64,000 nucleotides of DNA from an uncultured archaeon (GTDB lineage: Archaea > Thermoplasmatota > Penumbrarchaeia > JASLWR01), in assembly GCA_964430885.1 (NCBI GenBank), contig CAYSHM010000001.1, positions 64,001-128,000 of the forward strand, in the 5' to 3' direction. The notes beneath the pieces are model-generated. The model was not told where the DNA came from. It searched no databases and saw nothing but the letters and a program-made list of their open reading frames with translations. Of this stretch, positions 3,102-34,100 are shown piece by piece. Position 1 is the first letter of the stretch. Each line of letters starts with the position of its first letter. The translations under genes and the position numbers were made by a program.

Positions 3102-3196
3102 CATTCACCATCCATTTCTAACATCATTTTATATAAAATTTATCCGTAAATGCGGGAACTTTAATATACTATAAATCTATTAAAAACACATTCCTG

Positions 3197-4888
3197 GTGT
3201 TAAATATGTCCGATAACAATATAGTAACAGATCTTGATTTGACAAAACCCTTTTTTTTGGTTCAAGTGGAAAGGGCCCAGGGTTCGGATAAGTTCTTTTG
3301 GTCACCTAATATGTTCATTGATGACGAGGCGCCTTCAGGATATGAAATCCAGGAGAATACCTATATTACCAGAATCGAGGTCAGCAATAATTTTGATCCT
3401 CCCGTAAATCAATGTATCCTTACTTTCAATCGGGTGGCGGGAACTCCACTGGATATTATTCCAGGGGATAAATTAGAGGTTTTCCTTGGATATTACAAGA
3501 GGGACGCCCTTACAGAACCTGAGTATGCTAAGGTCTTCACAGGATTTGTTTCAGAAATAGATAGACAGCTTACTGTATGCAGCGTCATGGCACTGAGTAA
3601 AATGCATATTCTTCTGTCGGTAAGAAAACATGTTGTCTTCAACAAGGATACTGCTGATAATATTATCAATAAATTGGTGGAAGATGTGGAGGGCATTGAG
3701 GTAAATGAAGTGTCCGCCAGCGAGATCCAAAAGAGCAAATATATTTTTTCACAGGCACGGAGCCTTTATGAAATAATCAAAGATCTATGCATACAGTCCA
3801 AATTCGATCTATACACTGATGTGAATGATAAATTGGTTGCTAAGCTTTGGGAACCTGAGAAATCATCCCCTGGCGATCACGGACTTGAGAAGATATATCC
3901 TGACACAAAAGATGCATCCAATACTAAACAGTATATTCATAATTTTTATTTTGGTTTGAACATATTAGGTATGGATATTAGTTATGTCAAATCCGATGTT
4001 GGTTCCGTGGAAGTGGTTAGCTTTTCCAGTTATGGTGAGGATAACGAGAACCAGTACTCCATCGAAAGGACTAGTTTTGTCAAGGAATTGGAGATAAGTG
4101 CCGATGAATATCAGCCCATGAATAAGAAGATCATTCAGCTCCCCTACACCCCTGCGGAAAGTGCCGAGAAGATCCAGGATAATCTATTATTTTATTACAA
4201 TCCAAAATTGAAAGGTTCCATAAAGGTAATTGGCTCGCCTCATGTAAGATTGAATGACGGTTTGAGGGTGGCCGGGAAGTTCTTTGGAAAACCGCCCTTC
4301 ACCGGGGTCACCTCCTCAGGAAGCGAGTGGGATGCAAGAGAATCGGAGGACACCGAATCCTCTGATGAGGGCAAAGGCAAGACCTTTCAGATTGTGGGTG
4401 TGAACCATATTTTCAGCTTCAAACAGGGTTTTATTTCAGAGTTTGGCATAGTTGAGAGAGAACCGCCTGAAGGCAGTACTGGTGACGAGGTGGAGGAAGC
4501 TACTGGGACTGAGGGTGCTGAAGGGGAACCCGCCGAGGAGCAGCAGGAGGATTACGGACAGTCCGTAGTGGCCCCCGAGTATCCCGAGGTTGCCGACAAG
4601 GAGGCGAATGCTCTGATGGAGGCCCAGCAAGAGTTCGTCCAGCAGATGGAGGGACTGATGAACAACGCTACCGAAGTGAAGACCGAGCGATCCGAGGTGG
4701 CAAAGGAGTATACAGACCTCCACCCCCAGCAGGAGGGGGGTTTAATGGATGCCTTGGATGATTTCCACACATCAATGGGAGATCTGAAGAGCAAGACAAA
4801 GGGCCTTTCCGAGGCAAAAAAGGATCCTGACGATTGGTACAAGAAGACCGAGAAGGAGAAGCCCAAGGCCTGGAAGGATGAGGAATAG
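3197..4888 (+). CDS. Phage late-control D / baseplate hub (VgrG N-terminal-like) protein with acidic linker and helical C-terminal extension
   Basis: Pattern typical of gpD/gp27-like hubs: 'GDKLEVFLGY', 'KVFTGFVSEI', 'TADNIINKL', 'SLYEIIKDLC..SKFDLYTD', 'GSIKVIGSPHVRLND', 'FQIVGVNHIFS.KQGFIS'. Likely start is ATG 3206. Recognised by eye only. Confidence 0.65.
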   Translation: MLNMSDNNIVTDLDLTKPFFLVQVERAQGSDKFFWSPNMFIDDEAPSGYEIQENTYITRIEVSNNFDPPVNQCILTFNRVAGTPLDIIPGDKLEVFLGYYKRDALTEPEYAKVFTGFVSEIDRQLTVCSVMALSKMHILLSVRKHVVFNKDTADNIINKLVEDVEGIEVNEVSASEIQKSKYIFSQARSLYEIIKDLCIQSKFDLYTDVNDKLVAKLWEPEKSSPGDHGLEKIYPDTKDASNTKQYIHNFYFGLNILGMDISYVKSDVGSVEVVSFSSYGEDNENQYSIERTSFVKELEISADEYQPMNKKIIQLPYTPAESAEKIQDNLLFYYNPKLKGSIKVIGSPHVRLNDGLRVAGKFFGKPPFTGVTSSGSEWDARESEDTESSDEGKGKTFQIVGVNHIFSFKQGFISEFGIVEREPPEGSTGDEVEEATGTEGAEGEPAEEQQEDYGQSVVAPEYPEVADKEANALMEAQQEFVQQMEGLMNNATEVKTERSEVAKEYTDLHPQQEGGLMDALDDFHTSMGDLKSKTKGLSEAKKDPDDWYKKTEKEKPKAWKDEE

Positions 4889-4966
4889 CTTAAGGATTGG
4901 AATGGAATTTGAAATCCATTGATTTGGATTGAATTTGGATAAATGTGTTAATTCGGAGAGATTATA

Positions 4967-7900
4967 ATGCCAGATTGTGATTGTGTGGCTTGTCAAATGG
5001 GCATGAAGGCCCTTGAGCAGATAGATAAGGCCGATGTGGCTTCCCAAAAGGCCCTGGTTCAGGTAGAGGAGAAGACCAATGGGATAATAGACCAGGTCCA
5101 GGATGCCCTTTCCCAGTTCAACTCCAAGGCCCTCGATATGAAGAACGCGGTTCTTGATGCGGTGAACACCGCCATTGATACGGTGGAACAGCAGATCGGC
5201 GATATAGGTCCGGAGCTCAAGGAAAAGGGACAAGGGGCTGTGAACGAGGCTTTTGCACAGGTGGAAACCCTTCCTGACGAGTTCAATGCCAAATTGACCG
5301 AGATGAAGGACGAGGTTGTGGCCCAGATAGAGGAGCAGGTTCACAAGATAAGCGAAGCGGCCCAGGAAAAGATTGGCACCATAAGAGGTCAGGTCGAGGG
5401 GAAGAAGGATGAGGTAATGGGCACACTTGATGAGCAGATAGACAATGTCACGGCCAAGATGGGGGAGATCACGGACGGCATCAATTCCAAACTTGATGAG
5501 ATAGTCAATCTTCTGAAGGAGAAGTTCGATTCGGTCTACAAGGGCAAACCGGGGTATGATGAAGCATCGGCAGAGCTGGACCATATACTCGAGGAGTTGA
5601 AGACAACACTCCAGAATACCATAAACCAGCTCTCCGAGGATATCCGAAATACCATTACAGAGATCAAGGATGAGATAATCACTGCAATAAATGATACATT
5701 CGATGATGTTTTCGATCTAATAGAGAGCATCCCAGGGAAGATAGAGACTGCCATATCGGATATAGTCAATCTTGTTGATACTGCCCTGCAGGAAACTCTG
5801 GACCAGGCGACGGAGTTGGTCAATGATATAATTGCCGACGCCAAGCAGAAGCTTAATGATGCCATAGCTCTCATAACCGATACGGTGGACAATCTGATTG
5901 ATGAGGGGATCGCCCTTGTAAAGTCCCTCCGTGATGAGATCAGGGATGCCCTGAACAGCTTGATAGATCAGATCAGGGAGTTCACCCAGGATACTCTGGA
6001 TCAGGTGAGGAACGGGGCTAACGGGATATTCGAAACGGTCAGTACTGAGCTTCATAAAGGCCTTATGATGGCTCGGGAAACAATAAATGAGATAGTCATC
6101 GACATGGGGGATCGGCTTAACCAGAAGATAGAACAGGTCAAGACCGATATGGTGAACGAGGCCAACAAGCAGGTCAGGCAGCTCAGGGTTATGGGCGAGG
6201 AGGCCTATGCTGATGCTGAGGAAGCTTTCATCGATAATGGCTATACTGAGGATACATCAGTTGTAGATAATATTAGGGATGCAGGAGAACAGGCCGTCCA
6301 GGAGATGCAGACCACAATGCAGGCCCAAGCTGAAAAACTGATATCGGATTTCAAGCTCCAGGTCACACTCTACATACCCAAGATAGTACAGCAGGGTGCG
6401 GCCTTGATAAGTTCGGCTTCCAGTGCTACAAGCGGAGTGATACAGCAGTGCATAACCATAGGAACTGATCTGTCGACAAGCATAACTGAAAAAATTGATG
6501 GATTCATATCCACTTTCGAGACCGCCAAGAACAATATTACTGAGATAATAACGGTGAAAGGACCTGAATATATCGAGCTTTGTAAGACCTCGGTAATGGA
6601 GGCAGTGGACACATTGAAGAACATGGGTGAGGAGTTCTATACCAATACTGTGGAGAAAACAAAGAAATTGGTTGAAGATACTAAGAACCGTTTCGTCACA
6701 CTCTACGAAGATATCAAGTCCACAGTTGAGGATCTTATTGACGATCTTGTATCATCAGTAATGGACACCATTGAGACCATAAAGGACAGATTTGTGGAGC
6801 TCTACAACAGCATCAAGGATAATGTAGAGAATTTGGTAAGTGAGATAACCGATACGGTCTCTTCCATGGTGGACGATTTGAAGGCCCTTATAGATGAAGA
6901 GCTTGAAAAACTCAAAGAGGGAGTTGAGAATGCTGTCGATGCAGTTAAGGAATTGAAGGACAAGGTTGTGGGTCAGATTGAGGAGAAGATGAATGATGTC
7001 CTCGGTCAGGTGGACAGTAAATACCTTGAAGCCCTAGGTCTGGATGATGAGGTTGATGCATTGAAGGAAAAGGCAGGGGAATTGATGGATGAGATAAGTT
7101 CAACCATAGATGAGCAGGCCGATAATATCGGAAACAGCATTCAGGATCAGATAAGCGGTGCCCAGGATGCCTTGATGGGGGATGTTGAGTCCGCAGCAGA
7201 TGATTTCCAGAGCAAGGCCGGTGAGACTCTGGACGGGGGCAATTTCGAGGAAGGCTTGAGCGGGGTGAACGAGGAATTCCAGACCACTTTAGAGGAAGTC
7301 AAGGAGAAAACCGGGGAACTGGAGGAAGTGGGTAAAAATGCCAAACAGGGTATGATCGAGGTCAACGATGCTGCCAATGAGGCTGCAGCTTCAGCTTCTG
7401 AAGCGGCCAAGGAGAGCGTGAATGAGGCAATGGCATCAGCCGGTGATGCAGGCGGTGCTATCAAGGAATCTGGAAGCGAGATGAACGAGAAGTTGAACGA
7501 GGCCACCGAGGCGGTCAAAGCTGCTGGAGAGGCGGGTAAGAAGGGAATGGAAGCCGCAAAGGATGCAGGTAAACCCAGTGGTGGCGCCCCGGCAGGCGAG
7601 GGCGGAGCGGAAGCCGCTGGCGGAGAAGGCGGAGGTGCTGAGGAGGGTGCCGGAGGCGAGGAAGCTGCAGGTGGAGAGGAGGCAGGTGAATCAGGCGGGG
7701 CGGAAGAAAGTGGCGGTGCGCCCGGAGAGAAAGGTGCTGGAACTGCTGAACAGACGGAAGGAGCCGGTGAAGATAAAGAAAAGGCTCCAGATGAAGAGAA
7801 GAAGGGACCTGCGAAGAAGGAAGATGAACCTGGGGAAGGTGAAGCTGTGACAGAAGAAAAATCTGATGAGTCGGGGGGGAAGGAAGAAGAGCAAGAGGAG

Positions 7901-8497
7901 GAAAGAGAGGGCGAAGGTGAACCTGCCAAGAAGAAGGATGAAGAAGCAGAGGATACTGGTAAAGAGGGCGAGGAGAAAGAGGATGGCAAGTCTGGGGAAG
8001 GTTTGGGTATGCCTGGTGAAGGTGATGAGGATGGTACCGAGACTGATGAAGGCGGTTTGGGATTGCCAGGTGAAGAGGCCGGAGAGAAAGAGGGTGACGG
8101 AGGCTTGGAAATTCCAGAAGGTGAGGGAAAGGAGGGCGATGGTGAAGGACTTGGTATTCCGGATGATACTGAGACTGGTGAAGAGGGAGGTATGGACCTT
8201 ACCAAAGAGAAACCTGATGGAGGAGAGGAGACCGGCGGTCTCGGAGTTCCAGAAGAAGGGACTGGGACAGGCGAGGAGAAAGAAGGATTGGGATTGTCGG
8301 ATGATAGTTCATCAGAGACCGTTAGCGGCGGAAGTATGACAGGTGAACAGGCAGAAACTGGTGGAGGTAAGACCGTTGCCGGAGGGGCAGTAGTGAAAGA
8401 TGATGGAGGCCCAGGAGATTCAAAACCCACCCCCAAGAAAGGTGGGGGAAAAGGAAAAAAGGGTAAAGGTCTGAAAGGCAAGGTAAATAAAAAATAA
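4967..8497 (+). CDS. Long 11-residue-repeat (hendecad) amphipathic helical protein with Gly/Glu-rich disordered tail (tape-measure/apolipoprotein-like)
   Basis: Clear 11-aa periodicity (IIDQVQDALSQ/FNSKALDMKNA/VLDAVNTAIDT/VEQQIGDIGPE...) over ~830 aa. N-terminal CxCxxC, G/E-rich tail and Lys-rich end. GGAG RBS. Confidence 0.75.
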   Translation: MPDCDCVACQMGMKALEQIDKADVASQKALVQVEEKTNGIIDQVQDALSQFNSKALDMKNAVLDAVNTAIDTVEQQIGDIGPELKEKGQGAVNEAFAQVETLPDEFNAKLTEMKDEVVAQIEEQVHKISEAAQEKIGTIRGQVEGKKDEVMGTLDEQIDNVTAKMGEITDGINSKLDEIVNLLKEKFDSVYKGKPGYDEASAELDHILEELKTTLQNTINQLSEDIRNTITEIKDEIITAINDTFDDVFDLIESIPGKIETAISDIVNLVDTALQETLDQATELVNDIIADAKQKLNDAIALITDTVDNLIDEGIALVKSLRDEIRDALNSLIDQIREFTQDTLDQVRNGANGIFETVSTELHKGLMMARETINEIVIDMGDRLNQKIEQVKTDMVNEANKQVRQLRVMGEEAYADAEEAFIDNGYTEDTSVVDNIRDAGEQAVQEMQTTMQAQAEKLISDFKLQVTLYIPKIVQQGAALISSASSATSGVIQQCITIGTDLSTSITEKIDGFISTFETAKNNITEIITVKGPEYIELCKTSVMEAVDTLKNMGEEFYTNTVEKTKKLVEDTKNRFVTLYEDIKSTVEDLIDDLVSSVMDTIETIKDRFVELYNSIKDNVENLVSEITDTVSSMVDDLKALIDEELEKLKEGVENAVDAVKELKDKVVGQIEEKMNDVLGQVDSKYLEALGLDDEVDALKEKAGELMDEISSTIDEQADNIGNSIQDQISGAQDALMGDVESAADDFQSKAGETLDGGNFEEGLSGVNEEFQTTLEEVKEKTGELEEVGKNAKQGMIEVNDAANEAAASASEAAKESVNEAMASAGDAGGAIKESGSEMNEKLNEATEAVKAAGEAGKKGMEAAKDAGKPSGGAPAGEGGAEAAGGEGGGAEEGAGGEEAAGGEEAGESGGAEESGGAPGEKGAGTAEQTEGAGEDKEKAPDEEKKGPAKKEDEPGEGEAVTEEKSDESGGKEEEQEEEREGEGEPAKKKDEEAEDTGKEGEEKEDGKSGEGLGMPGEGDEDGTETDEGGLGLPGEEAGEKEGDGGLEIPEGEGKEGDGEGLGIPDDTETGEEGGMDLTKEKPDGGEETGGLGVPEEGTGTGEEKEGLGLSDDSSSETVSGGSMTGEQAETGGGKTVAGGAVVKDDGGPGDSKPTPKKGGGKGKKGKGLKGKVNKK
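8000..8299 (+). repeat. Seven GLG[MLIV]P-like peptide motifs in the acidic tail of the hendecad protein
   Basis: GLGMP, GLGLP, GLEIP, GLGIP, GMDLT, GLGVP, GLGLS separated by G/E/K/D spacers. Confidence 0.75.
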
Positions 8498-8601
8498 TTT
8501 TTACATATATCCCTTCCTTTCAGGAAAAATCCTGAACACCAGAATTAGCCAGTCTGAACTATGAAATTTTTTAAAGGATAAGTATGATAAAAGTAATATA
8601 G

Positions 8602-10584
8602 GTGTATAACAATGTTGAATTCATCGGTTTTTATTTTATCATCATCATAGTGACTGGCATGTTGGAAAAAGGAAAAAGGGAACTTCTGGATACCAGGGAG
8701 ATAAATATTCTCTTTGACTTTCCGTTCTTGGATGAGTATGACATCGAAGTTAAGGAAATAGAGCCGGAGGATTCTAGGGAATCGAATCTGTCGACCCATG
8801 AAATAGATATCCATAAACTTCTGGGTAAGGTCGTTGAAAGATACAGCGAAAAGGAATCCCACATTCTTCCACAAAGTAAGGGATCTGAAATTGCAAATGA
8901 TTCATATGATGCCTATGCCCATACGGTCGATTCAGGGAATATCAAAGAAGATGCTGATAATGTTCCAGCTACCAAAAAGGCCTCTAAACCGGGAAGAAAA
9001 AGATCAAAGAAAAAAGTAGGTTTCACAATTATAAGTGAAAATGATGATCTAAATACAGGTGAAAAGGAATCAGAAGGGCTGGATGAGTTCAATAATGACA
9101 AGAAATCCGGGGGAAAATCACCGGGAAACATAACAATGCCGCCGGACAGCAGTAAAGATGTGATTGAATTGCCAGTAAAGTCTTCCGGGCCTGATGAATC
9201 GTTGAAAGAGGATAAGGTGATTGAACTGCCACCCACAATTCATACTCCGCAGGATGTAGAAGAACCAGAGTATATAAAAATTGAAGACGGCATGCAATAT
9301 CGGAAGGAAACCAAGGGCCAGATCTCCGAAGATTATTACAGCGATAATACGGAGGCTGATAAAGGTAATGGCGCGGTTTCCCAAAAAGTATATGATAATT
9401 CTCATGAAGTGGCAGAAGAGGGAGATGTATTGGCAGAAGAAGCTGATGAAAATGGAGAAGGCGTAAAGGAACAACAGGTTTTAGACACACAAAAAGATAG
9501 CAATATTGATGATATAGAGGACAATTCCGAAAAGAAGGATGAAGGCGATGAAGATGAATTAAAGGAAGTAATCGAATTGCCTGTTAGAGCGCAGAAAGAT
9601 AGCGGTGAAGTAACATCTAAAGGTGTAATAGAGCTCCCGGTAAAAAGTGCTGGGAGATCAGTAGATGAGCCTCTAAAAAGTGTGATAGAACTGCCAGTGA
9701 AGAGCGCCGGGGAATTAGTAGATAAACCTGCAGAAGGTGTGATTGAACTGCCGGTAAAAGGAATGAAAAAATCAGATATTGAGCAGGATGGAGATGAAGG
9801 TATCATTGAGCTTCCAGTCAAATCAGGTGGAGATATTAGACGCGGTCAGCCTAGTGTTATTGAATTACCTGTGAAATCAAAAGGAGAGGTTGAAACCGGA
9901 ATTAATGAAGTAATAAAATTGCCATCCTGGTCTGAAGTATATCCTAAAATGGACGGCTGCCCTGAAGGAACTGATCTTGAAAAAATACCTATCCATGATG
10001 AAGTGAAGAAACGCCAGGATGCCCTTGAGCAGATGATGGCTAGAAAAGGCCTATTGAGGAAGAAGAAAAAGGAAAAACCAAAACTAACAGATATAGAAAG
10101 GGTAAGATTGAATAGGCTACATGAGAAACAGCATAATGCAATTAAGCAGACATTGAGGCAGAGGAAAAGAAAGAAAAAATACACAACATTGACCTGGGAG
10201 GATCTCAAGGTACTGAGAACAAAGAACTTTGATTCCATCAAAAAGATCACACAAAAACCGGGAATACAGGAAGAACGAAAATCTGATCTGCCCATACTTA
10301 AAAAGATATCCCCAGATACCTCGATTGACGTTGCAGACAAAAAGAAAACCCATGAGGGGCGCCCTAATTCAGATGAAGGCATAACACAATTAAAAAGGAT
10401 CATTGATTCGTCATCTCCAGCAAGATTCAAAGTCGAAAACGCTTCAGCCGCACCACAACCAAATCCCTCAGTTGTTCCAGGCGTCACTTTCAGTAAAATA
10501 TACAGATGTACAAAGTGCAATGCTATTGTTAATCGAAGGGTCACTAACAGATGCTTTTCATGTGGTCAGGTGATATCTGATTGA
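8602..10584 (+). CDS. Largely disordered protein with VIELPV-type motif array and C-terminal zinc ribbon
   Basis: Acidic low-complexity body, nine motif copies, a basic helical segment, and C-terminal CTKC-x11-CFSC. True start may be ATG 8659. Confidence 0.75.
   Translation: MYNNVEFIGFYFIIIIVTGMLEKGKRELLDTREINILFDFPFLDEYDIEVKEIEPEDSRESNLSTHEIDIHKLLGKVVERYSEKESHILPQSKGSEIANDSYDAYAHTVDSGNIKEDADNVPATKKASKPGRKRSKKKVGFTIISENDDLNTGEKESEGLDEFNNDKKSGGKSPGNITMPPDSSKDVIELPVKSSGPDESLKEDKVIELPPTIHTPQDVEEPEYIKIEDGMQYRKETKGQISEDYYSDNTEADKGNGAVSQKVYDNSHEVAEEGDVLAEEADENGEGVKEQQVLDTQKDSNIDDIEDNSEKKDEGDEDELKEVIELPVRAQKDSGEVTSKGVIELPVKSAGRSVDEPLKSVIELPVKSAGELVDKPAEGVIELPVKGMKKSDIEQDGDEGIIELPVKSGGDIRRGQPSVIELPVKSKGEVETGINEVIKLPSWSEVYPKMDGCPEGTDLEKIPIHDEVKKRQDALEQMMARKGLLRKKKKEKPKLTDIERVRLNRLHEKQHNAIKQTLRQRKRKKKYTTLTWEDLKVLRTKNFDSIKKITQKPGIQEERKSDLPILKKISPDTSIDVADKKKTHEGRPNSDEGITQLKRIIDSSSPARFKVENASAAPQPNPSVVPGVTFSKIYRCTKCNAIVNRRVTNRCFSCGQVISD
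9160..9924 (+). repeat. Nine-copy [VI]I[EK]LP(V[KR]) peptide repeat
   Basis: Copies are VIELPVK x5, VIELPVR, IIELPVK, VIELPP and VIKLP. Codons differ between copies, and the last seven are ~18-21 aa apart. Confidence 0.9.
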
Positions 10585-11525: not shown

Positions 11526-13841
11526 CTATGTCTCCCATCCGTCATCGTCATCCCAGTCATCGCTGCTTTCATCATCATCTTTCCACCAATCCTTATCTGG
11601 GCGTGATCGATGTATCCTTTCTCTCCCATGATCTCCGGCAACTTTCTGTCGTCCTTTCCGCTGTCTTCTAACCGCTGCTCCTCTCGTCATGCTTGGATGC
11701 CGGCCATCTATTCTTTTTCTCCTTCCGGCAATTGGGGAAACATCCTCCTTATCATCGTACCAATCATCATCGTCCGGCTCTGCCATCTTAGGTCCATCAT
11801 CCCATCCGTCATCGTCATCCCAGAATTTTTTACTCCTCCTCTCATATCCGAATCTTTCGCTACTGTCCTCCTCTCTTCTGTATTTTGCCCTTCCTGATGA
11901 TCCCTTAATTCTCACCCCTCTTCTCTTTCCCCTTGGGGGTACATCCTCTCTCCTTTGTTCATGCCATCTTTCCTTCTTCTTATCCTTTGGGGCCCTAGTA
12001 GTGCTTTCCTTTTCTGGCGGAGATTCACCGGCAGGAGTATCATCAGAGGTCTTATCCCCCTTCTTTTTTGTTTTTCCAAACTCATCCAGATCCCATTTAC
12101 TCCGAAGAAATTGGATTATTATTATACAGACAATTATTAGAATGAATGCACCGATACCCAAAATAGCAATGGTTCCCCACAGTGAAATATTCGAACCCTT
12201 CTTTTGCCCCTTCTCATTAACCTGTAATGAAGGGTCAAGAGGAAATACATCCAATTGCAGTCCAGTGGTAGAATCAGCATCGGTCTTACCAGGGTTCCAA
12301 TTATCTGGCCAATTATCGCCGTCGGAATCCAGACTTGCAGCGGGATCCTTCGGAAAAGAATCGATATGGGTTACATTGGAATCAGGATGCTCTTCTTCAT
12401 ATCCTGGGTTCCACTGGTCAGGATATCCATCGTCGTCCGCATCCAAACTTACAGCAGGGTCCAGGGGGAAACAGTCAGTATAATTGATTCCTCCTATTGA
12501 GTCCTCTTTTCCTTTTCCCAGATTCCATTCATCCGGGAATCCGTCCCCATCGGAATCCCTACTCACCGCAGGATCATCAGGATAATCATCCAGATATGGG
12601 ATGCTGGTTGTAGAATCAGTTTGATCATATCCCTGGTTCCACTTATTGGGATATCCATCCCCATCGGAATCCATACTGGCCGAAGGGTCAGTCGGAAAAT
12701 CATCGATGTAATCAATATCTGACATGTTATGGTCTTCCTCATAACCGGGATTCCATTCATTGGGAAACCCGTCCCCATCACTGTCCTTGCTGACGGCGGG
12801 ATCGTTTGGATATTCATCTTGAATTTTCCCATCATTATCTGGATCAGCATTGTATATATCTATGATCTCATTTGCAGTCCCCATAGCCAACAGATTATCC
12901 CCTGGATGAAAAGAAATATCCCGAACAGTCAAGGAGTTATCACCTATCGATAAAATTGCCTCCCCTTCATGAAGGGACCAAAGGTAAACAGGCCCCCCTA
13001 TACCGGCTGAAATTATAGTTTCCTCTTTTTTCACAAACTCTACATCATAAACCTTATCCAGATTTCCGCTGAAGACCTTATAGATTATTTCCATATTAAG
13101 GTCCCAGACTATTGTTTTTCCATCGTTCCCTCCAGATATGAGCCAGCGCCCTTCATCCGGCTGAGAGGGCCACAGAAGGCACTGTATGGTATCGGTATGC
13201 CCGTGATATGTGTTGAATATGTTTCCGGTTTCCACATCCCATATCAATATTGTGTTGAAAGCCGAAGAGGCGATGGTTTTACCATTTGAAGACCAATCCA
13301 GATCAGTGACAGCATCGTCATGTGAGGTGAAATTCATGATGGAACGCTCCATGGAGCTGGTATAGATGTAGATTGACCCATTGCTGGTCCCCATCCCTAT
13401 CCTGCTCCCGTCCGGAGACCATTCCACGCATGTCGGATATTCGTTAACAAGGGATATGTTCTTCAGGATATCTCCGGTCCTTTCCTGCCATAATATTACC
13501 GAGTTGTCCATGCTCCCGGAGACTATCATTTTCCCGTCTGGAGACCAATCCAGATCTGTAATTCCCGATGAATGTTCAGTGAATTTGAGTGTATAATTAC
13601 CGTTTTCGGTATTCCAAATTCTGATTATACCATCCAAGGAACCTGAGGCCATTTTATCCTCACTATCATACCAGTCCAGTGCGAAAACAGGGGCATTATG
13701 ACCTATCAATGCTGTATCTGCCAGGGTTATGTTTAGTATATCTCCCTTTGTCGTCGATAAACATAGGGTGGAGGTGAACATTATCATCAATAGGGAGACC
13801 GCACAACTCCACGGAATATATTTTTTTTTAAGTTTATACAT
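11526..13841 (-). CDS. Membrane-anchored WD40 beta-propeller protein with thrombospondin type-3-like Ca-binding repeats and charged cytoplasmic tail
   Basis: Signal peptide, ~7 WD40 repeats (GH..V..LDW..D....ASGS.DG.IRIW), five DxxPxDP..SxDxDxDGxPxxWN repeats, one TM helix, and an acidic/basic Trp-rich tail. Confidence 0.88.
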   Translation of the reverse strand: MYKLKKKYIPWSCAVSLLMIMFTSTLCLSTTKGDILNITLADTALIGHNAPVFALDWYDSEDKMASGSLDGIIRIWNTENGNYTLKFTEHSSGITDLDWSPDGKMIVSGSMDNSVILWQERTGDILKNISLVNEYPTCVEWSPDGSRIGMGTSNGSIYIYTSSMERSIMNFTSHDDAVTDLDWSSNGKTIASSAFNTILIWDVETGNIFNTYHGHTDTIQCLLWPSQPDEGRWLISGGNDGKTIVWDLNMEIIYKVFSGNLDKVYDVEFVKKEETIISAGIGGPVYLWSLHEGEAILSIGDNSLTVRDISFHPGDNLLAMGTANEIIDIYNADPDNDGKIQDEYPNDPAVSKDSDGDGFPNEWNPGYEEDHNMSDIDYIDDFPTDPSASMDSDGDGYPNKWNQGYDQTDSTTSIPYLDDYPDDPAVSRDSDGDGFPDEWNLGKGKEDSIGGINYTDCFPLDPAVSLDADDDGYPDQWNPGYEEEHPDSNVTHIDSFPKDPAASLDSDGDNWPDNWNPGKTDADSTTGLQLDVFPLDPSLQVNEKGQKKGSNISLWGTIAILGIGAFILIIVCIIIIQFLRSKWDLDEFGKTKKKGDKTSDDTPAGESPPEKESTTRAPKDKKKERWHEQRREDVPPRGKRRGVRIKGSSGRAKYRREEDSSERFGYERRSKKFWDDDDGWDDGPKMAEPDDDDWYDDKEDVSPIAGRRKRIDGRHPSMTRGAAVRRQRKGRQKVAGDHGRERIHRSRPDKDWWKDDDESSDDWDDDDGWET

Positions 13842-29264: not shown

Positions 29265-32200
29265 TCACTCCTCTATCCATCCTTCAGAACTCTCATCCTC
29301 TCCATCCTCATCGTACTCTCTTCCATCCACTGTTTCTTTTTCCTCCTCTTCTTCTTTGATCCACCCGTCTTCATCTGTGATGGTTTGTTTTTTTCCTTTA
29401 TCCTTTTTTGTCTGGGTCTTCTTTATCTTCCTCTCAAAATTGATCTGGAGTTCCTCGTATTCCTTTATAATATCCGATGATAGTGAAGGTTTCAAGGTTC
29501 TGCTCATCTTGACGAAATCCTTCATGTTTATAACAGTATTCCTCCCGGTCTTGATGGCTCTTTTAAGGTTTACCACTGCACATTCCTTGCACAGGTTGGC
29601 AACATCAGCTCCAGAATATCCTTTTGTTAACTTTGCTATCTTTTTAAGATCAATATTTCTGGATACGGGTTTACCCTTAAGGTGGATTTTCAGTATATCC
29701 ATCCGGGATTTGGCCTTGGGGGGAGGAATATAGACCACTTTATCGAACCTGCCGGGCCTTAACAGGGCCGGATCTATTAGCTCGGGTCTATTGGTGGCTG
29801 CTATGATTATTATCTCCTCGAACTTGTCCATACCGTCCATTTCGGAGAGCATTATGCTGAGAAGCCGCGGCGTCACATCATCCGCGCTGTAGAAATCCCT
29901 TCTTTTGGCTATGGCATCGATCTCATCAAGGAAAAGAACGCAGGGTTTTCTCTCCCTTGCGCTCTCGAAAAGAGCGGCAATCAGATTCTCTGATTCACCG
30001 TACCACTTGGACATTATATCCGAACATTTCACTCCTATCATATCCACTTCCAGCTCGGTGGCAATCACTCTCATTAAGAGTGTCTTACCGCATCCTGGTG
30101 GCCCGAACAGTATAAGGCCTTTTGGCGGCTCCACTCCGAATTTTTTGGACATTTCAGGCTTCAAAAGGGGACCGACGATGGAATCCCTGATCTCCTCCTT
30201 TACGTCCTTCAGACCGCCCACCTTCTTGAAACTTGTTTTTCGGAGGTTCATTGATTCTCCGATCCTAGTACCGATTATGGTCTTCTTGGTATCCTGGTAA
30301 AGCTCCGCGAATGCATTTCTGATCACGGTTCCGGACAGCACAGCAGTCATTACTGCAGGAAACATCAATAGGTAGATAACAATGTTCTTGGTCCTGAAAA
30401 TCACATCAGAATCAAAATCGGACACAAGCATCCCTATAATGGATACGGACAATAAAATGAAATAGGCTATTATCCCAAGGAACCAGGGGTTGATCTTCTC
30501 CTTTTTCCCACTTATATGCTTCTTGAAAAGATATATTCCAATTATAAGAATTATCCAGAACAGAAGCTGGATTAGGGGAACCATGGAGTCCATGTAGTTC
30601 TTGATGAAGCTGCCAAGTATGGAGAGGTCTAGATTGCGGATCCCGGAAATAGAATCAAGAAATTTCCTAGGGGTAAAGATCCCATAATCCGCGGACCTTG
30701 AAAAAGTGATTATGCTCTCCTTTTGGCTTGCAAAATCGGTAACTAGGAAAGAGAGGTTGTTCAGGTTTCCCGTGGCAACTAATATTGTCATGAATATCCC
30801 TGATACCAGTGTAGAGGTCACACTGAGGAAGAGCGAGAACATGAATATGGCCGCAATGGGTACGAGGAATGACAGCCCGAAGCTAGACAGGAAGACCATC
30901 ATAAAGGTAAGATATCCGAACTTCCAGTTGAACAGGGAACAAATACAGACGATCAGAGAGAATACCAGGAAGATCAGTCCGAACTGAGGAGTCTGGAAAC
31001 CTGCGGCGCCAATGGATATGAAGCTCACCATAATAAGACCGATAAAGGGGAACTTGTAGCCTACGCTGCCGAGGATAAGTGTGAAAAGCAGTATCATCCA
31101 CCAAGGATAGAATGGGCACCAGGAAGAAGCGAGGAATCCTAAAAGGGCAAAGGCAGCCCCAGTACCCAGGTTCTTCTTCAATTCGGGTTCCTCTTCGATA
31201 ACAGCCAACAATTTACTGAATATACCTGGATCGGATGATCCTTTCCCCCCCTTTTTGCCCTTTTTCCCAGTCCCATCCTCTTCCTCTGTAAGATATTTCC
31301 TGTAGGCAATGAACAACAGGGGCATCAAGATCGCTGCGGCAGCATAGGCAACTATGGTCCTGGTAGTTGGGAACTTGGAAATATCCATTTTTGTTGATAT
31401 GTCCTCCTCACCGTAATATACGACGAACTTGAAATCATCCATTCCCTGATAGATAGTGATTGGTATGGTCTTCATATCTCCTTCTTCTTCTATCAGAGGA
31501 GTAACCTTAATTATATATTCACCAGGGGCCATATTGCTGGGTGTCCAGTATATACCGTTAACAGTTTCTCCCCTTGAAAGATAACCGCTGGTGTTGGTCA
31601 CAGTAATGTTCGCTTCCATATACTGGCTGGTAATATTGTTGAAAACCACCACATATATTCCGTAAAGGAATTTCTCTTGGGGCGGTGTAACAGTATAGGT
31701 GAAGCTGTCTGAGGTTGTAGGGTTCCACAGTTCGTCATAGGCAGTGATGAAAAAGGTTATTTCGGCGGATCCCGGATATGGAGGAATTGCGGCCTGGAAA
31801 GTGTAATCATCCACTTTGTCCATGAGTTCCGCACCTTTCAGCTCCTCCTGAAAATCGGGTAGTTTAATAGAAACGTTAACATCTGCCCTTTGGATCTTTA
31901 CATCAAGGTCCTTTGAGGTGATGGTAAGATTGACTCCCTGATTGTAATCCGGCGGATTGGGCCCGAATTGAAGATTGACGTTCTGAGCAAATGAAGGGTA
32001 CTTCCAGGACCTCTTTGCCGCGACATCGTAATAGTAGTTCTTTGACTTTATTTGGTTCAGACCATCATAGGCCGTGATATGGAAAGTAACATTGGTCTGG
32101 GCTGCATAACCGTTAAGAACAGTGTACCTGTGGGTGGTATTAATTCTTTCCATCTGGTAGGCACCCGATGAAGTGTATTGTGGACCGTTTATTTCCACCC

Positions 32201-32429
32201 AGAGATCGGCCTGTATTATAGGTACTCCGTATTTGCTGCCAATGGTAACGTTAACACTCTGGTATTCGCTTGGCCGGTTCGGGCTGAATTTCACCGATAT
32301 ATTATCCTCGAAATTATCGCCTGTGAACTGTGCTGCAGATGCTTGGTTAGTTAGGATCAATAATGAAATGAGCAGGAATCCCAGTATGGTCATGGATGTC
32401 ATGATTCTCTTTAGTGGTATGTGTCTCAT
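29265..32429 (-). CDS. Fusion protein: extracellular Ig-like repeats + polytopic membrane domain + single classic-clade AAA+ ATPase
   Basis: Signal peptide, two internally homologous ~105-aa domains (..F.PN.P...Q.VN.TI.SK...ITAYD), roughly 10-12 TM segments, Walker A GPPGCGKT, pore loop KWYG, Walker B LFLDE, SRH ATNRPELIDPALLRPGRFD. Confidence 0.88.
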   Translation of the reverse strand: MRHIPLKRIMTSMTILGFLLISLLILTNQASAAQFTGDNFEDNISVKFSPNRPSEYQSVNVTIGSKYGVPIIQADLWVEINGPQYTSSGAYQMERINTTHRYTVLNGYAAQTNVTFHITAYDGLNQIKSKNYYYDVAAKRSWKYPSFAQNVNLQFGPNPPDYNQGVNLTITSKDLDVKIQRADVNVSIKLPDFQEELKGAELMDKVDDYTFQAAIPPYPGSAEITFFITAYDELWNPTTSDSFTYTVTPPQEKFLYGIYVVVFNNITSQYMEANITVTNTSGYLSRGETVNGIYWTPSNMAPGEYIIKVTPLIEEEGDMKTIPITIYQGMDDFKFVVYYGEEDISTKMDISKFPTTRTIVAYAAAAILMPLLFIAYRKYLTEEEDGTGKKGKKGGKGSSDPGIFSKLLAVIEEEPELKKNLGTGAAFALLGFLASSWCPFYPWWMILLFTLILGSVGYKFPFIGLIMVSFISIGAAGFQTPQFGLIFLVFSLIVCICSLFNWKFGYLTFMMVFLSSFGLSFLVPIAAIFMFSLFLSVTSTLVSGIFMTILVATGNLNNLSFLVTDFASQKESIITFSRSADYGIFTPRKFLDSISGIRNLDLSILGSFIKNYMDSMVPLIQLLFWIILIIGIYLFKKHISGKKEKINPWFLGIIAYFILLSVSIIGMLVSDFDSDVIFRTKNIVIYLLMFPAVMTAVLSGTVIRNAFAELYQDTKKTIIGTRIGESMNLRKTSFKKVGGLKDVKEEIRDSIVGPLLKPEMSKKFGVEPPKGLILFGPPGCGKTLLMRVIATELEVDMIGVKCSDIMSKWYGESENLIAALFESARERKPCVLFLDEIDAIAKRRDFYSADDVTPRLLSIMLSEMDGMDKFEEIIIIAATNRPELIDPALLRPGRFDKVVYIPPPKAKSRMDILKIHLKGKPVSRNIDLKKIAKLTKGYSGADVANLCKECAVVNLKRAIKTGRNTVINMKDFVKMSRTLKPSLSSDIIKEYEELQINFERKIKKTQTKKDKGKKQTITDEDGWIKEEEEEKETVDGREYDEDGEDESSEGWIEE

Positions 32430-32522
32430 CTTGGTACACCTTGGTTTTGATTCTGATTCGTATATTTTTTAGCTGGATAATGTAATTTTTTCATTTTGAT
32501 AGATTGATATTCATAAGCTACA

Positions 32523-34031
32523 TCATGTTCCGACAGTTACTTTCTGCTTAGCAACTATCCTTTTTCTCAGTTTGAGCCTTTCAATTATCCCCAGACCAAT
32601 GAATCCACCTATGAAATATTCCACTGGGAATACTGCCGGAGAGGCGGAGGCGGGCAGCCCGGTGGGGGTGGTTAACGGTACCACCGTCGGAGAGGCCGGA
32701 GTGGTTATGGGTATGGGATATCCTCCTGGTGGGGGGGGCGGAGGTACAGGTCCTGTTGGCGGAGGAGGTGGGGGTGGGGTAACGCCAAGCTCATCAGCAA
32801 GCACGAAAAATGTAATGGCAGGGAAATATTCTTCTGTCACCAGGTCATCCAGTAAATATCTGACCCTGGAAGCCCCGTATGGGTGAAGATCGAATCTACC
32901 CCCTTCAAGGGCTGAAATATTATAGGTTATGGTTATCTCATCTCCTATCATTATCCTGCTGAAATTCCATTCCAGTATGGTCCTGTCATTGGCTCCGTAG
33001 TAAATCGAATCAGGATAGAGTGAGAAAGAATTGTTGTCAAATTGAAAATTACCGGCTATTATATCCCGTATCATGGGGTAGCTGTCAGAAACATCATCAT
33101 CGTAGCCTGCCGTATAATTTCTAAATCTGTTCGCTATGGAATTATAGACTTGAAGAAGATCTTCAGGCCGGCTTGCGGTGTAATATTGGCCTCCGGTTTT
33201 TTTTGCCAACCATTTCAGAAGGTCCTCGTCCAGAAGATTTGAGGAACCATATTGATATAGTCCGATAGTGAAGATGACTATATCATTGGATATTGTTTCA
33301 TTCAGCAGTTCCAGACTGATATTCGTTGAAGCAGGCTCCGGCTTCCCATCGGTCAACAGAATACATACTTTGAGATTCTCGTCCGATCCGTGGTCAATGA
33401 GTTCCTGGTTAGTCAACTCCATGGCAGAGGTGAAATTGGTCTGACCGCCATTATCCAGGTAGTTCAGATCCTGAAGAATCTGTTGGTAGTTCGAGGATAA
33501 GTGATGATTGTTGATGACCTCAGCTGTATCCGAGAACCTAATAACTGCAGCATTGTCAGGCGAGATAAGCTGGTCCACGTAGCTCTTAGCAGCTTCACGT
33601 CTCAGATAGGTGGGATCAACACTGTCCATACTCGCTGAGCAATCAATGGTGAAAACTACATCCTGAGAATTGAAGTTTATAGCCGGATTCCCTTCACCTT
33701 TGATATTCAGGGTAACCGTGGATGTTTTGGGTGTTCTTTTATCTTCGGGACGCCATATCTCGTCGTAATTTACTGACTTATCTATTTCAAGGTGGGGAGG
33801 GGAGTCAGGGTCAATACCGGTCTGCAAACGGGTCTGAACTTGATCAGGCACAGTTCCAAACTGTTGAAGGGAAATCGGCTTTCCTTCTTCATTACCTTTT
33901 ACTTCAACAGCAGTATCATCATCTAAATCATCCTGCAGACAGGATGAAGAGCCGAATAGCCTCATCGAGGCTGAACCAAGCCAAATGATTCCGAGCCCAA
34001 TCAATATGGATAATAATACCTTTCTTTTCAT
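32523..34031 (-). CDS. VWA-domain surface protein with Pro-rich stalk and C-terminal TM
   Basis: MIDAS DCSAS...T...TDG, 'IFTIGL', 'LAKKTGGQYY', PPPPPPP stalk, hydrophobic anchor + basic tail. Confidence 0.88.
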   Translation of the reverse strand: MKRKVLLSILIGLGIIWLGSASMRLFGSSSCLQDDLDDDTAVEVKGNEEGKPISLQQFGTVPDQVQTRLQTGIDPDSPPHLEIDKSVNYDEIWRPEDKRTPKTSTVTLNIKGEGNPAINFNSQDVVFTIDCSASMDSVDPTYLRREAAKSYVDQLISPDNAAVIRFSDTAEVINNHHLSSNYQQILQDLNYLDNGGQTNFTSAMELTNQELIDHGSDENLKVCILLTDGKPEPASTNISLELLNETISNDIVIFTIGLYQYGSSNLLDEDLLKWLAKKTGGQYYTASRPEDLLQVYNSIANRFRNYTAGYDDDVSDSYPMIRDIIAGNFQFDNNSFSLYPDSIYYGANDRTILEWNFSRIMIGDEITITYNISALEGGRFDLHPYGASRVRYLLDDLVTEEYFPAITFFVLADELGVTPPPPPPPTGPVPPPPPPGGYPIPITTPASPTVVPLTTPTGLPASASPAVFPVEYFIGGFIGLGIIERLKLRKRIVAKQKVTVGT

Positions 34032-34100
34032 GGTCTCAGCTCACTTGGATTATGATACTTAGCTCTCTGAAATATGTAGTGTAATACGGTTAAAATTGGA

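What the first reader, a model, noticed from the sequence alone, without database searches (positions are those of the whole stretch)
3197..10584. Orphan baseplate-hub + tape-measure-like + motif-array three-gene module with no other phage genes
Seen: three co-oriented genes (gaps ~80-160 bp) sit between housekeeping genes (asparaginase, HAD). The first reads like a gpD/gp27/VgrG-N hub, the second has ~830 aa of 11-residue repeats, the third is a disordered motif array. No sheath, tube, wedge, PAAR, capsid, terminase or integrase gene is present in the 64 kb. Established: gp27-like hubs trimerise and cap the tail tube in phage tails, T6SS and eCIS, and 11-mer periodicity is typical of tape measures (and of apolipoproteins). 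Inference: this could be an archaeal 'orphan hub + cargo/ruler' island serving an injection system encoded elsewhere, or a domesticated tail-derived filament. At 0.15 nm per residue, the repeat region would span ~125 nm if fully extended.
Basis: partly seen in the sequence, partly recalled or inferred. Interest (0 to 1): 0.78.

Follow-up and report, generated by a model that had tools for sequence, protein, structure and literature searches.

The report
Hub gene of a scattered archaeal injection system
The first gene is a genuine phage-tail-type baseplate hub, and the other parts of a contractile injection machine (sheath, tube, spike, wedge, fibre-like genes) are present in this marine archaeon but split over at least six other places among housekeeping genes, an unusual layout that cluster-based searches would miss.

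Summary
The ORFs, gaps and flanks are as described. Gene 1 (3206-4888) is a gp27/gpD/Mu-gp44-type hub: the AF2 model has pLDDT 83 and aligns to the Streptomyces CIS hub at Z 28.6 and Mu gp44 at Z 24.6. It has no spike domain and ends in helices. Gene 2 (4967-8497) has a hydrophobic period of 3.65 residues (11/3) over about 720-870 aa. It resembles the rods of true tape-measure proteins. Its rod length is almost invariant (869/868/865 aa) in three orthologues that are only 34-39% identical. Gene 3 is a lineage-specific orphan and not part of a conserved module.

The hub is not orphan in the genome. Sheath, tube + TMP-like + Mu-gp43-like, gp25 + gp6/J + wedge, spike + PAAR, a chaperone-like gene and a fibre-like trio lie at six other loci, each among housekeeping genes. 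No capsid or terminase was detected.

The same scattered set recurs in up to 9 of 37 genomes of the class, in five families. It was found in none of the 24 genomes of the largest family.

Best reading: this is the hub plus inner-rod module of a vertically inherited, dispersed contractile injection system. Whether gene 2 is the length ruler, a cargo or a tether is unresolved.

The parts
3206..4888 (+). Baseplate hub (gp27 / P2 gpD / Mu gp44 / XkdQ type). The core is aa ~10-425, followed by an acidic linker and then C-terminal helices at aa 462-541. There is no OB-fold or beta-helix spike. The ORF is open from the GTG at 3197.
   Evidence: Pfam YQBQ-like E 1.6e-5, 24.9 bits, below the 27-bit cut-off. 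Family profile A2 against PDB: 9gtr_q 1.5e-11, Mu gp44 0.003. AF2 pLDDT 83.3, pTM 0.73. Foldseek 7aef_q 5.5e-21. VIA Z 28.6 to 9gtr_q (rmsd 3.1 A over 329 aa), 24.6 to Mu gp44, 19.6 to T4 gp27.
4967..7573 (+). Gene 2, rod part (aa 1-869). It has an invariant N-terminal CxCxxCQMG motif, followed by amphipathic helix with 11/3 (hendecad) periodicity of the tape-measure / apolipoprotein-like type.
   Evidence: Period 3.65 aa, power 255 against shuffle 95th percentile 90. Per-window power stays high to about aa 720. Apolipoprotein PF01442 at 121 bits; TMP PHROGs 1.6e-29 to 6.7e-15. 20-22% identity over 700+ aa to PF10145-bearing TMPs that show the same periodicity. Rod length is 869/868/865 aa with 2 indels (4 residues) among three orthologues at 34-39% identity.
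7574..8497 (+). Gene 2, acidic Gly/Glu-rich disordered tail. It carries 5 G-L-x-(I/L/V/M)-P motifs and has a basic C-terminus.
   Evidence: Composition G 26%, E 22%. The motif [ILVM]x[ILVM]P occurs 5 times against 0.08 expected, and 0 of 1000 shuffles reached that count. The tail is indel-rich among orthologues, with 9-11 gap runs.
8602..10584 (+). Gene 3: a lineage-specific disordered protein with 9 (V/I)IELPVK-type motifs and a C-terminal zinc ribbon. It is not a conserved member of the module. The likely start is the ATG at 8659.
   Evidence: Translation. One weak relative (E 4.7e-6) in the 5.8-billion-protein search. No counterpart downstream of gene 2 in G003 (a kinase gene on the other strand) or in G001 (an unrelated 1985-aa surface protein). 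Motif enrichment 10 against 1.03 expected.
3157..3165 (+). AACTTTAAT, a BRE/TATA-like word 40 bp upstream of the 3197 start. The same word class lies upstream of the tube and gp25 modules elsewhere in the genome.
   Evidence: AACTTTAA[AT] occurs 29 times on both strands of the 3.13-Mb genome. 3 of the 29 lie 40-107 bp upstream of the first genes of the hub, tube and gp25 loci. It is not conserved upstream of the G003 orthologues, so this is only a lead.

Best explanation
Genes 1 and 2 are the central-hub module of a headless, phage-tail-derived contractile injection system (CIS). In this clade of marine Thermoplasmatota the system's genes are scattered over at least seven chromosomal loci.

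Shown: gene 1 encodes the hub. By analogy with Mu gp44 and P2 gpD (inference), it would form a trimer that seats the separately encoded gpV-type spike and PAAR tip on one side and nucleates the tube on the other, together with a Mu-gp43-like protein.

Inferred: gene 2 encodes a ~130-nm straight alpha-helical rod of the kind that makes up tape-measure proteins (869 aa at 0.15 nm per residue). It most likely docks on the hub and occupies the tube lumen as a length ruler or inner rod. Its acidic motif-bearing tail would be free to bind a partner or to be expelled on firing.

Gene 3 is a species-specific neighbour. It may share a binding motif with the tail of gene 2 but is not a conserved component.

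The other parts are encoded at C6 (sheath), C1:175.8-181.1 kb (tube, TMP-like protein, gp43-like protein), C12 (gp25, gp6/J, wedge), C18 (spike, unknown 279 aa, PAAR, TPR), C32 (chaperone-like) and C3 (fibre-like trio).
For: Hub fold. Of 20 remote relatives scanned (out of the 132 found), 8 carry Phage_GPD, YQBQ or E217_GP41 hub domains.

Other parts in the same genome:
- Sheath: PF04984 and PF17482.
- Baseplate_J at 1.5e-33 and a gp25-type sheath initiator.
- Wedge protein: phrog_1160 at 1.3e-12.
- Spike: PF04717. PAAR: 1.9e-18.
- Tube: a 133-aa protein whose AF2 model (pLDDT 68) has 25 Foldseek matches at E <= 1e-3. Those listed are tube or tube-fold proteins of phage, tailocin, CIS and GTA tails, plus Hcp.
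- gp43-like protein: DNA_circ_N at 1.5e-3, with the G006 orthologue matching DUF6046.
- Chaperone-like protein: Atlas lead only, PF08890 at score 0.90.
- Fibre-like trio: phrog_5417 at 2.3e-24.

Each locus is flanked by housekeeping genes: ribosomal proteins and NOG1, CTP synthase, AglB, NMN-adenylyltransferase-like. The hub and tube loci lie about 103 kb apart on one 251-kb contig.

Co-occurrence in the class (37 genomes): hub 7, sheath 9, J 9, spike 8, gp43-like 8. All hits fall in families f1, f2, f4, f6 and f7, with 0 of 24 in f9. In every positive genome the parts lie on different contigs. Sheath identity is 55-75% across families.

The hub-rod pair is syntenic in G003 (GPN ATPase, asparaginase, hub, rod) and in G001.

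Rod-hub linkage elsewhere: the hendecad domain is fused to the gp43-like protein directly upstream of the hub in G009, and is fused to hubs in 2 of the 20 remote relatives scanned.

Rod length conservation.

Capsid (PF05065) and terminase (PF03237) searches gave only sub-cut-off noise.
Against: - No physical or expression evidence exists.
- Gene 2 carries no TMP Pfam domain. It lies after the hub, not between the chaperone and hub-proximal genes.
- A different TMP-like protein (P0141, 1124 aa, phrog_15478 at 2.3e-6) holds the canonical position.
- Gene 2 orthologues were found only in f1, plus weak hits in G004 (4 of 37), whereas the hub occurs in 7 of 37. The rod is therefore not universal to the system.
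- The tube query also hit only 4 of 37 genomes.
- G002 has the sheath, spike and gp43-like genes but neither a hub nor a rod hit. It is a 93%-complete MAG.
- A terminator/cap and an AAA+ ATPase were not sought.
- All genomes are MAGs (own genome 91.6% complete, 1.4% contamination), so mis-binning of single contigs cannot be excluded formally. The recurrence of the same set in up to nine MAGs argues against it.
Confidence: 0.6

Rival explanations
1. Gene 2 is not a ruler. It is a hub-associated cargo or membrane-active protein, and the locus is the analogue of a T6SS vgrG-effector island. The apolipoprotein-like amphipathic helices would bind or disrupt a membrane, or tether the baseplate to the cell membrane.
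For: Apolipoprotein A1/A4/E HMM at 121 bits against a cut-off of 90. The profile hits ApoA-IV at 8.6e-15 in PDB. The gene lies directly downstream of the hub, as effectors do after vgrG (own knowledge). Hub relatives carry varied C-terminal extensions: OmpA/PG-binding, SpaA-like, and a 2831-aa giant in G004. A separate TMP-like protein already exists.
Against: The rod is strongly acidic (E + D 21.5% against K 7.3%), which does not favour binding to anionic membranes (inference). Its length is held almost constant at 34-39% identity, which a cargo need not be. Its best remote relatives are PF10145 tape-measure proteins with the same periodicity.
Confidence: 0.2
2. The scattered tail genes are decaying remnants of one or several ancient proviruses. 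They no longer build a machine, and the hub-rod pair has been co-opted for something else or does nothing.
For: No contiguous cluster exists in any of the genomes examined. No cap or ATPase was identified. The tube and rod queries hit only 4 of 37 genomes. Some relatives carry extra or broken copies: G009:C76 has a hub with one in-frame TAA plus a 98-aa fragment.
Against: In the own genome every part is a single intact ORF, and together the parts form a complementary, non-redundant set. Sheath identity is 55-75% and tube identity 54-80% across families. The hub family has 85 invariant columns among its 8 close members. The phyletic co-occurrence spans five families.
Confidence: 0.1
3. The hub and rod form an autonomous domesticated structure (a hub-capped filament) that works independently of the sheath and baseplate genes.
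For: The pair is a self-contained, conserved two-gene unit in f1. The hub has its own C-terminal helices.
Against: The hub was never found in a genome that lacks the sheath (7 of 7 hub-positive genomes are sheath-positive). In f4 and f6 the hub gene directly follows the gp43-like and TMP-like genes, as in Mu-type tails.
Confidence: 0.07

Closest known systems
Baseplate hub proteins Mu gp44 / P2 gpD / PBSX XkdQ-YqbQ (Pfam PF05954, PF24032) and the gp27-like N-terminal part of CIS VgrG-like proteins (Streptomyces 9gtr_q, AlgoCIS 7aef_q)
   Same: Same fold over aa ~10-425: Z 28.6 to 9gtr_q, 26.3 to 7aef_q, 24.6 to Mu gp44, 19.6 to T4 gp27. The spike is encoded separately, as in Mu and P2.
   Different: Sequence identity is 8-15%. 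Alone, the protein falls below the Pfam cut-off. It has an added acidic linker and about 80 aa of C-terminal helices. Its gene is not next to any other tail gene except the rod.
Orphan / auxiliary vgrG-hcp-PAAR islands of bacterial T6SS (929 orphan islands are reported in the abstract of PMC13098142, seen only in the search listing)
   Same: A hub gene with a downstream partner gene lies away from the genes for the rest of the machine.
   Different: Those islands supplement a contiguous core cluster. Here no core cluster exists: sheath, tube, wedge and spike are each separate too. The downstream gene is a TMP-type rod, not a recognisable toxin.
Haloarchaeal T6SS-like CIS (Halogeometricum borinquense; PMC11566945; passages read)
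   Same: An archaeal contractile injection system with sheath, tube, baseplate and spike.
   Different: That system is one gene cluster of 14 structural genes in two subclusters on a plasmid. The authors propose it was horizontally acquired, and no tape-measure homologue was found in it. The present system is chromosomal, split into seven or more loci, appears restricted to one Thermoplasmatota class, and has two TMP-like proteins.
Phage tape-measure proteins with PF10145 and apolipoprotein-like repeats (P0144-P0146); T4 gp29 hub/tape-measure hybrid (recalled, not tested)
   Same: A long hendecad alpha-helical rod. Association with the central hub.
   Different: Gene 2 lacks the PF10145 domain, lies downstream of the hub, and has a 307-aa acidic motif-bearing tail.
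Gene transfer agent of Rhodobacter capsulatus (recalled from own knowledge)
   Same: A domesticated phage-derived particle whose genes are spread over several chromosomal loci and inherited vertically.
   Different: GTAs have capsid, portal and terminase genes. None was detected here. The portal was not searched.

Membership tests
gp27 / gpD / gp44 baseplate hub | Multi-domain gp27-like fold covering the whole hub core | tested here: met
   AF2 pLDDT 83. VIA Z 19-29 to more than 30 hub/VgrG entries, aligned 290-330 aa, rmsd ~3 A. Foldseek E down to 5.5e-21.
gp27 / gpD / gp44 baseplate hub | Sequence-profile membership (Pfam PF05954 / PF24032) | tested here: inconclusive
   The single sequence scores 24.9 bits for YQBQ against a cut-off of 27. 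The family profile reaches 9gtr_q at 1.5e-11 and Mu gp44 at 0.003. Its remote relatives carry PF05954 / PF24032 in 8 of 20 scanned.
gp27 / gpD / gp44 baseplate hub | Trimer forming the 3-to-6-fold adaptor under the tube | not tested
   No oligomer model was made.
gp27 / gpD / gp44 baseplate hub | Encoded beside other baseplate or tail genes | tested here: not met
   In this genome the neighbours are an asparaginase gene and the rod gene. In G006 and G009 the orthologue does follow the gp43-like and TMP-like genes.
VgrG (gp27 + gp5 fusion) | OB-fold and beta-helical spike C-terminal to the hub | tested here: not met
   After aa ~425 the model has only a disordered linker and helices. A separate 225-aa PF04717 spike and a PAAR protein are encoded on contig 18.
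Tail tape-measure protein | Long alpha-helical rod | tested here: met
   Period 3.65 aa over about 720-830 aa. TMP PHROGs at 1.6e-29. The same periodicity occurs in the PF10145 proteins P0144-P0146.
Tail tape-measure protein | Recognised TMP domain (e.g. PF10145) | tested here: not met
   None appears among the 24 Pfam families listed at E <= 1.
Tail tape-measure protein | Gene lies between the chaperone/tube genes and the hub-proximal genes | tested here: not met
   It lies downstream of the hub. The canonical slot (tube, X, gp43-like) is held by P0141.
Tail tape-measure protein | Length is constrained and sets tail length | tested here: inconclusive
   Rod length is 869/868/865 aa at 34-39% identity. 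This fits a ruler, but tail length is unknown.
Exchangeable apolipoproteins (PF01442) | HMM match above cut-off reflecting common descent | tested here: inconclusive
   121 bits against a cut-off of 90 and ApoA-IV at 8.6e-15. The match comes from 11-mer amphipathic repeats that true TMPs also possess, so repeat-type similarity is the likelier cause.
Contractile injection system (eCIS / T6SS-like / tailocin) | Core parts: sheath, tube, hub, spike, gp25, gp6/J, gp7-like wedge | tested here: met
   All were found once each in the genome.
Contractile injection system (eCIS / T6SS-like / tailocin) | Parts encoded in one gene cluster | tested here: not met
   Seven loci on six contigs, each flanked by housekeeping genes. 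The same holds in relatives.
Contractile injection system (eCIS / T6SS-like / tailocin) | Cap/terminator and AAA+ ATPase (Cis16, Cis15/ClpV) | not tested
   No search was made. A 1054-aa AAA protein lies in the window (29265-32429), but it was not linked to the system.

The most novel reading that the evidence does not exclude
A whole clade of marine Thermoplasmatota carries a vertically inherited contractile injection machine whose genes have been atomised into seven or more single- to four-gene loci embedded in housekeeping neighbourhoods. The canonical tape measure is divided between a motif-bearing protein next to the tube gene and a length-invariant ~130-nm hendecad rod next to the hub. 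On this reading the system is a host organelle assembled from trans-encoded parts rather than a mobile cassette, and it is invisible to cluster-based CIS catalogues.
Probability: 0.45. Interest if true: 0.78.

Novelty: new variant of a known kind. Interest (0 to 1): 0.63.

Why it matters
CIS, T6SS and tailocin surveys define systems by gene clusters. The papers I saw describe archaeal CIS only as clusters (PMC11566945, passages read; listings).

A complete but fully dispersed set, conserved across five families of an uncultured marine archaeal class, would have three consequences:
- Such catalogues undercount these machines.
- Tail-derived machines can be assimilated into the host chromosome to the point of losing operon structure.
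- Marine Thermoplasmatota may carry out contact-dependent or particle-mediated interactions that have not been considered.

The hub-adjacent rod, with invariant length but fast-evolving sequence, offers a direct test of how tail length is set when two TMP-like proteins exist.

Tried and rejected
- Tube families PF06841, PF19266, PF04985, PF09393 and PF10618 gave no hit in the own genome. The tube was found instead by its position upstream of the TMP-like gene and by its fold.
- Complex prediction of hub aa 420-563 with rod aa 1-200 gave no answer (score 0.00). This is no evidence either way.
- The look-up of sequencing runs listed no RNA holder.
- The search for related loci found no relatives with hub alignment A1 or P0009 in metagenome contigs, or with P0083 in viral contigs. 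With the sheath alignment in genome contigs it returned only 8 loci of the same clade.
- tblastn of the sheath against 50,697 phage records gave one weak hit (24.7% identity, E 3e-4), so no known virus is a close source.
- PDB sequence searches with the gp43-like, wedge and unk279 profiles gave nothing significant.
- Looking for a shared regulatory motif upstream of the modules gave only the AACTTTAAW word at 3 loci, and it is not conserved in G003.
- One translation (the G004:C49 giant) was in the wrong frame (114 stops) and was discarded.
- Literature searches found no paper describing a dispersed CIS in Thermoplasmatota. The search for 'tape measure protein' + 'hendecad' returned one irrelevant paper. 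Supplements of the cited papers were not opened.
- The scan's own index holds no look-alike of the hub.

Full report
**Observation**

- 3197-4888 (563 aa from GTG; homologues align from the ATG at 3206);
- 4967-8497 (1176 aa);
- 8602-10584 (660 aa from GTG; an ATG at 8659 is the alternative start).

The gaps are 78 and 104 bp. The flanks are an asparaginase gene and a HAD-type hydrolase gene.

The window is archaeal. It encodes endonuclease dU, form-III RuBisCO with AMP phosphorylase, diphthamide synthase and an HVO_0163-type regulator. Earlier notes of this scan, and the record titles of relatives, place it in marine Thermoplasmatota.

I scanned 28 of the 52 listed ORFs of 120 aa or more. None matched a tail, capsid, terminase or integrase family.

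**Gene 1 is a hub**

Alone it only grazes Pfam YQBQ-like (24.9 bits, cut-off 27), and it has just 7 close homologues in 5.8 billion proteins.

A profile of these homologues found 132 representatives at E <= 1e-3. I scanned 20 of them:
- 8 carry the Phage_GPD, YQBQ or E217_GP41 hub domains;
- 2 (P0055, P0083) also have an apolipoprotein-like domain C-terminal to the hub.

The 49-sequence profile hits the Streptomyces CIS VgrG-like chain 9gtr_q at 1.5e-11 and Mu gp44 at 0.003.

The AF2 model has pLDDT 83.3 and pTM 0.73. Its structural matches are:

| Target | Score |
|---|---|
| AlgoCIS 7aef_q (Foldseek) | E 5.5e-21 |
| 9gtr_q (VIA-align) | Z 28.6, rmsd 3.1 A over 329 aa |
| 7aef_q (VIA-align) | Z 26.3 |
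| Mu gp44 (VIA-align) | Z 24.6 |
| T4 gp27 (VIA-align) | Z 19.6 |

The matches cover model residues 9-427. After that come an acidic linker and helices at 462-541. There is no OB-fold or beta-helix. The protein is therefore of the gpD/gp44 type, not a VgrG.

**Gene 2 is a hendecad rod**

- Hydrophobicity has a single dominant period of 3.65 residues (11/3). Its power is 255, against 90 for the 95th percentile of shuffle maxima. Identity autocorrelation peaks at lags 11, 22 and 33.
- The signal is strong to about aa 720.
- Pfam calls it Apolipoprotein (121 bits). PHROGs calls it tape measure (1.6e-29 and seven further TMP families at E <= 1e-14).
- The weak best hits in the big protein search include three proteins that carry the PF10145 TMP domain. 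These align to gene 2 at 20-22% identity over 700+ aa and show the same 11/3 periodicity in the aligned regions. The repeat type is therefore that of real tape measures.
- Gene 2 itself has no TMP domain.
- Three orthologues (own, G003, G001) share an invariant N-terminal CxCxxCQMG motif. Their rod lengths are 869/868/865 residues, with only two indels totalling 4 residues, at 34-39% identity. The G/E-rich tail, by contrast, has 9-11 gap runs.

**Gene 3 is not conserved**

It has one weak relative. It has no counterpart after gene 2 in G003 or G001.

It does share a hydrophobic-x-hydrophobic-Pro motif with other acidic tails of this module:

| Segment | Observed | Expected from shuffles |
|---|---|---|
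| Gene 3 | 10 | 1.03 |
| Gene 2 tail | 5 | 0.08 |
| G003 orthologue tail | 8 | 0.39 |
| Hub homologue P0009 tail | 7 | 1.9 (3 of 1000 shuffles reach it) |
| G001 orthologue tail | 0 | 0.04 |

**The hub is not orphan in the genome**

The assembly holds 3.13 Mb in 44 contigs and is 91.6% complete. It contains the following parts, one copy each:

| Locus | Genes | Flanking context |
|---|---|---|
| C6:21001-22428 | Sheath, alone | AglB-type giant and a radical-SAM gene |
| C12:63670-66845 | gp25-type initiator, Baseplate_J (1.5e-33), 403-aa wedge protein (phrog_1160, 1.3e-12) | CTP synthase and a C25 peptidase |
| C18:55237-59192 | Zinc-ribbon protein, gpV-type spike (PF04717), unknown 279 aa, PAAR (1.9e-18), TPR protein | |
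| C32:16800-17312 | 170-aa protein whose orthologues directly follow the sheath gene in G004, G006 and G009; Atlas suggests an XkdN-type chaperone (lead only) | |
| C1:175850-181104 | 133-aa tube protein, P0141 (1124 aa; P/S/G-rich; TMP motif region phrog_15478 at 2.3e-6), 426-aa Mu-gp43-like protein (DNA_circ_N 1.5e-3; the G006 orthologue hits DUF6046) | Ribosomal-protein genes and NOG1 |
| C3:65473-67312 | 257-aa protein (phrog_5417 at 2.3e-24; tail-fibre phrog 9e-6), 158-aa protein, 200-aa Ig-domain protein | |

Five Pfam tube models had missed the tube. Its AF2 model (pLDDT 68) gives 25 Foldseek matches at E <= 1e-3. Those listed are tube or tube-fold proteins of phage, tailocin, CIS and GTA tails, plus Hcp.

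Capsid and terminase searches gave only sub-cut-off noise.

The hub and tube loci lie about 103 kb apart on the same 251-kb contig. The dispersal is therefore not an assembly artefact.

**Conservation**

Counts of genomes with a match among the 37 genomes of the class:

| Part | Genomes with a match |
|---|---|
| Hub | 7 |
| Sheath | 9 |
| J | 9 (two weak or partial) |
| Spike | 8 |
| gp43-like | 8 |
| Tube | 4 |
| Rod | 4 |

- Every hit lies in families f1, f2, f4, f6 or f7.
- None lies in f9 (0 of 24), f8 (0 of 2), f3 or f5.
- In a sample of 401 genomes of the phylum, the sheath family was found strongly only in these 9, plus 2 weak partial hits.
- In each positive genome the parts sit on different contigs, in the same small modules: gp25-J-wedge; spike-(279 aa)-PAAR-TPR; sheath alone or with the chaperone-like gene.
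- G003 keeps the order GPN-ATPase, asparaginase, hub, rod.
- In G006 and G009 the hub still directly follows the gp43-like and TMP-like genes, as in Mu. In G009 the gp43-like protein carries a ~220-aa hendecad domain at its C-terminus.
- In G004 the hub is the N-terminus of a 2831-aa protein, and the tube is present in six copies.

**Interpretation**

The complementary, single-copy, intact and co-occurring parts are best read as one headless contractile machine. Its genes have been dispersed and are inherited vertically. Genes 1 and 2 are its hub module.

The rod is tied to the central hub complex three ways: by adjacency (f1), by fusion to the gp43-like protein (G009), and by fusion to hubs (P0055, P0083). 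Its invariant length fits a ruler or inner rod of about 130 nm. That figure assumes 0.15 nm per residue and is an inference.

Against this reading, P0141 holds the canonical tape-measure position, and the rod is absent from f4, f6 and f7 by my searches. Cargo and tether roles therefore remain open.

The presence of fibre-like genes hints at an extracellular mode. This is inference only.

**What failed**

The co-fold test gave no answer. No RNA-seq holder was listed. The searches for further loci in metagenome and viral collections were empty.

**Comparison with the literature**

The closest described archaeal system, the haloarchaeal T6SS-like CIS, is a plasmid-borne cluster without a tape-measure homologue (PMC11566945, passages read).

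My three literature searches found no description of a dispersed CIS in Thermoplasmatota.

I therefore rate the hub as a new member of a known family. I rate the system it belongs to as a new variant (a dispersed architecture, with a hub-linked rod) of a known kind.

Noticed in passing
window 3157-3165; own genome C1:175752 and C12:66952: The word AACTTTAA[AT] occurs only 29 times on both strands of the 3.13-Mb genome. 3 of the 29 lie 40-107 bp upstream of the first genes of the hub, tube and gp25 modules. AAACTTTAAAT occurs twice in the genome, both times upstream of CIS modules. It is not conserved upstream of the G003 orthologues. It could be a shared core promoter.
   Followed up: partly
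window 7574-8497 and 8990-9980; P0009 aa 430-700; L021 (G003 orthologue tail): Acidic disordered regions attached to this module repeatedly carry hydrophobic-x-hydrophobic-Pro motifs (GLGIP, GIDIP, VIELP, IGVP), far above shuffle expectation. The G001 orthologue has none. A common reader protein may exist.
   Followed up: partly
L005:9546-9701; L029:7738-8211; L076:10159-10425; window 10480-10584: Small zinc-ribbon proteins or domains sit beside several of the dispersed modules: a 51-aa ORF upstream of the sheath, a 157-aa protein upstream of the spike, an 88-aa protein after the gp43-like gene, and the C-terminus of gene 3. The gp43-like protein itself has a CxxC...CPxH knuckle. Zinc ribbons are common in archaea, so this may be chance.
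   Followed up: no
G004 (L025, L063, L064, L096, L112-L117): One relative has amplified parts: six tube copies, tandem sheath-chaperone pairs plus a divergent third sheath (30% identity), a hub fused into a 2831-aa protein, and a very long open frame after the gp43-like gene that runs off its contig.
   Followed up: partly
G009 (L013, L017, L019, L020): This relative has three full-length hub paralogues on different contigs, each among housekeeping genes. One has an in-frame TAA, and there is also a 98-aa hub fragment.
   Followed up: no
window 29265-40772 (minus strand): A 1054-aa AAA+ ATPase, a 502-aa VWA protein and a 2223-aa Ig-repeat surface protein lie in a row. I did not test whether the ATPase relates to the injection system.
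   Followed up: no
window 11526-13841 (minus strand): A 771-aa WD40 beta-propeller protein lies two genes downstream of the module. It is a possible peptide-motif reader. This was not examined.
   Followed up: no
window 4001-10000: The module has higher GC (0.49-0.50 against about 0.43) and strong purine skew (GC skew 0.19-0.32, AT skew up to 0.28). This is explained by the Glu/Gly/Asp/Lys-rich coding of genes 2 and 3 rather than by foreign origin.
   Followed up: partly
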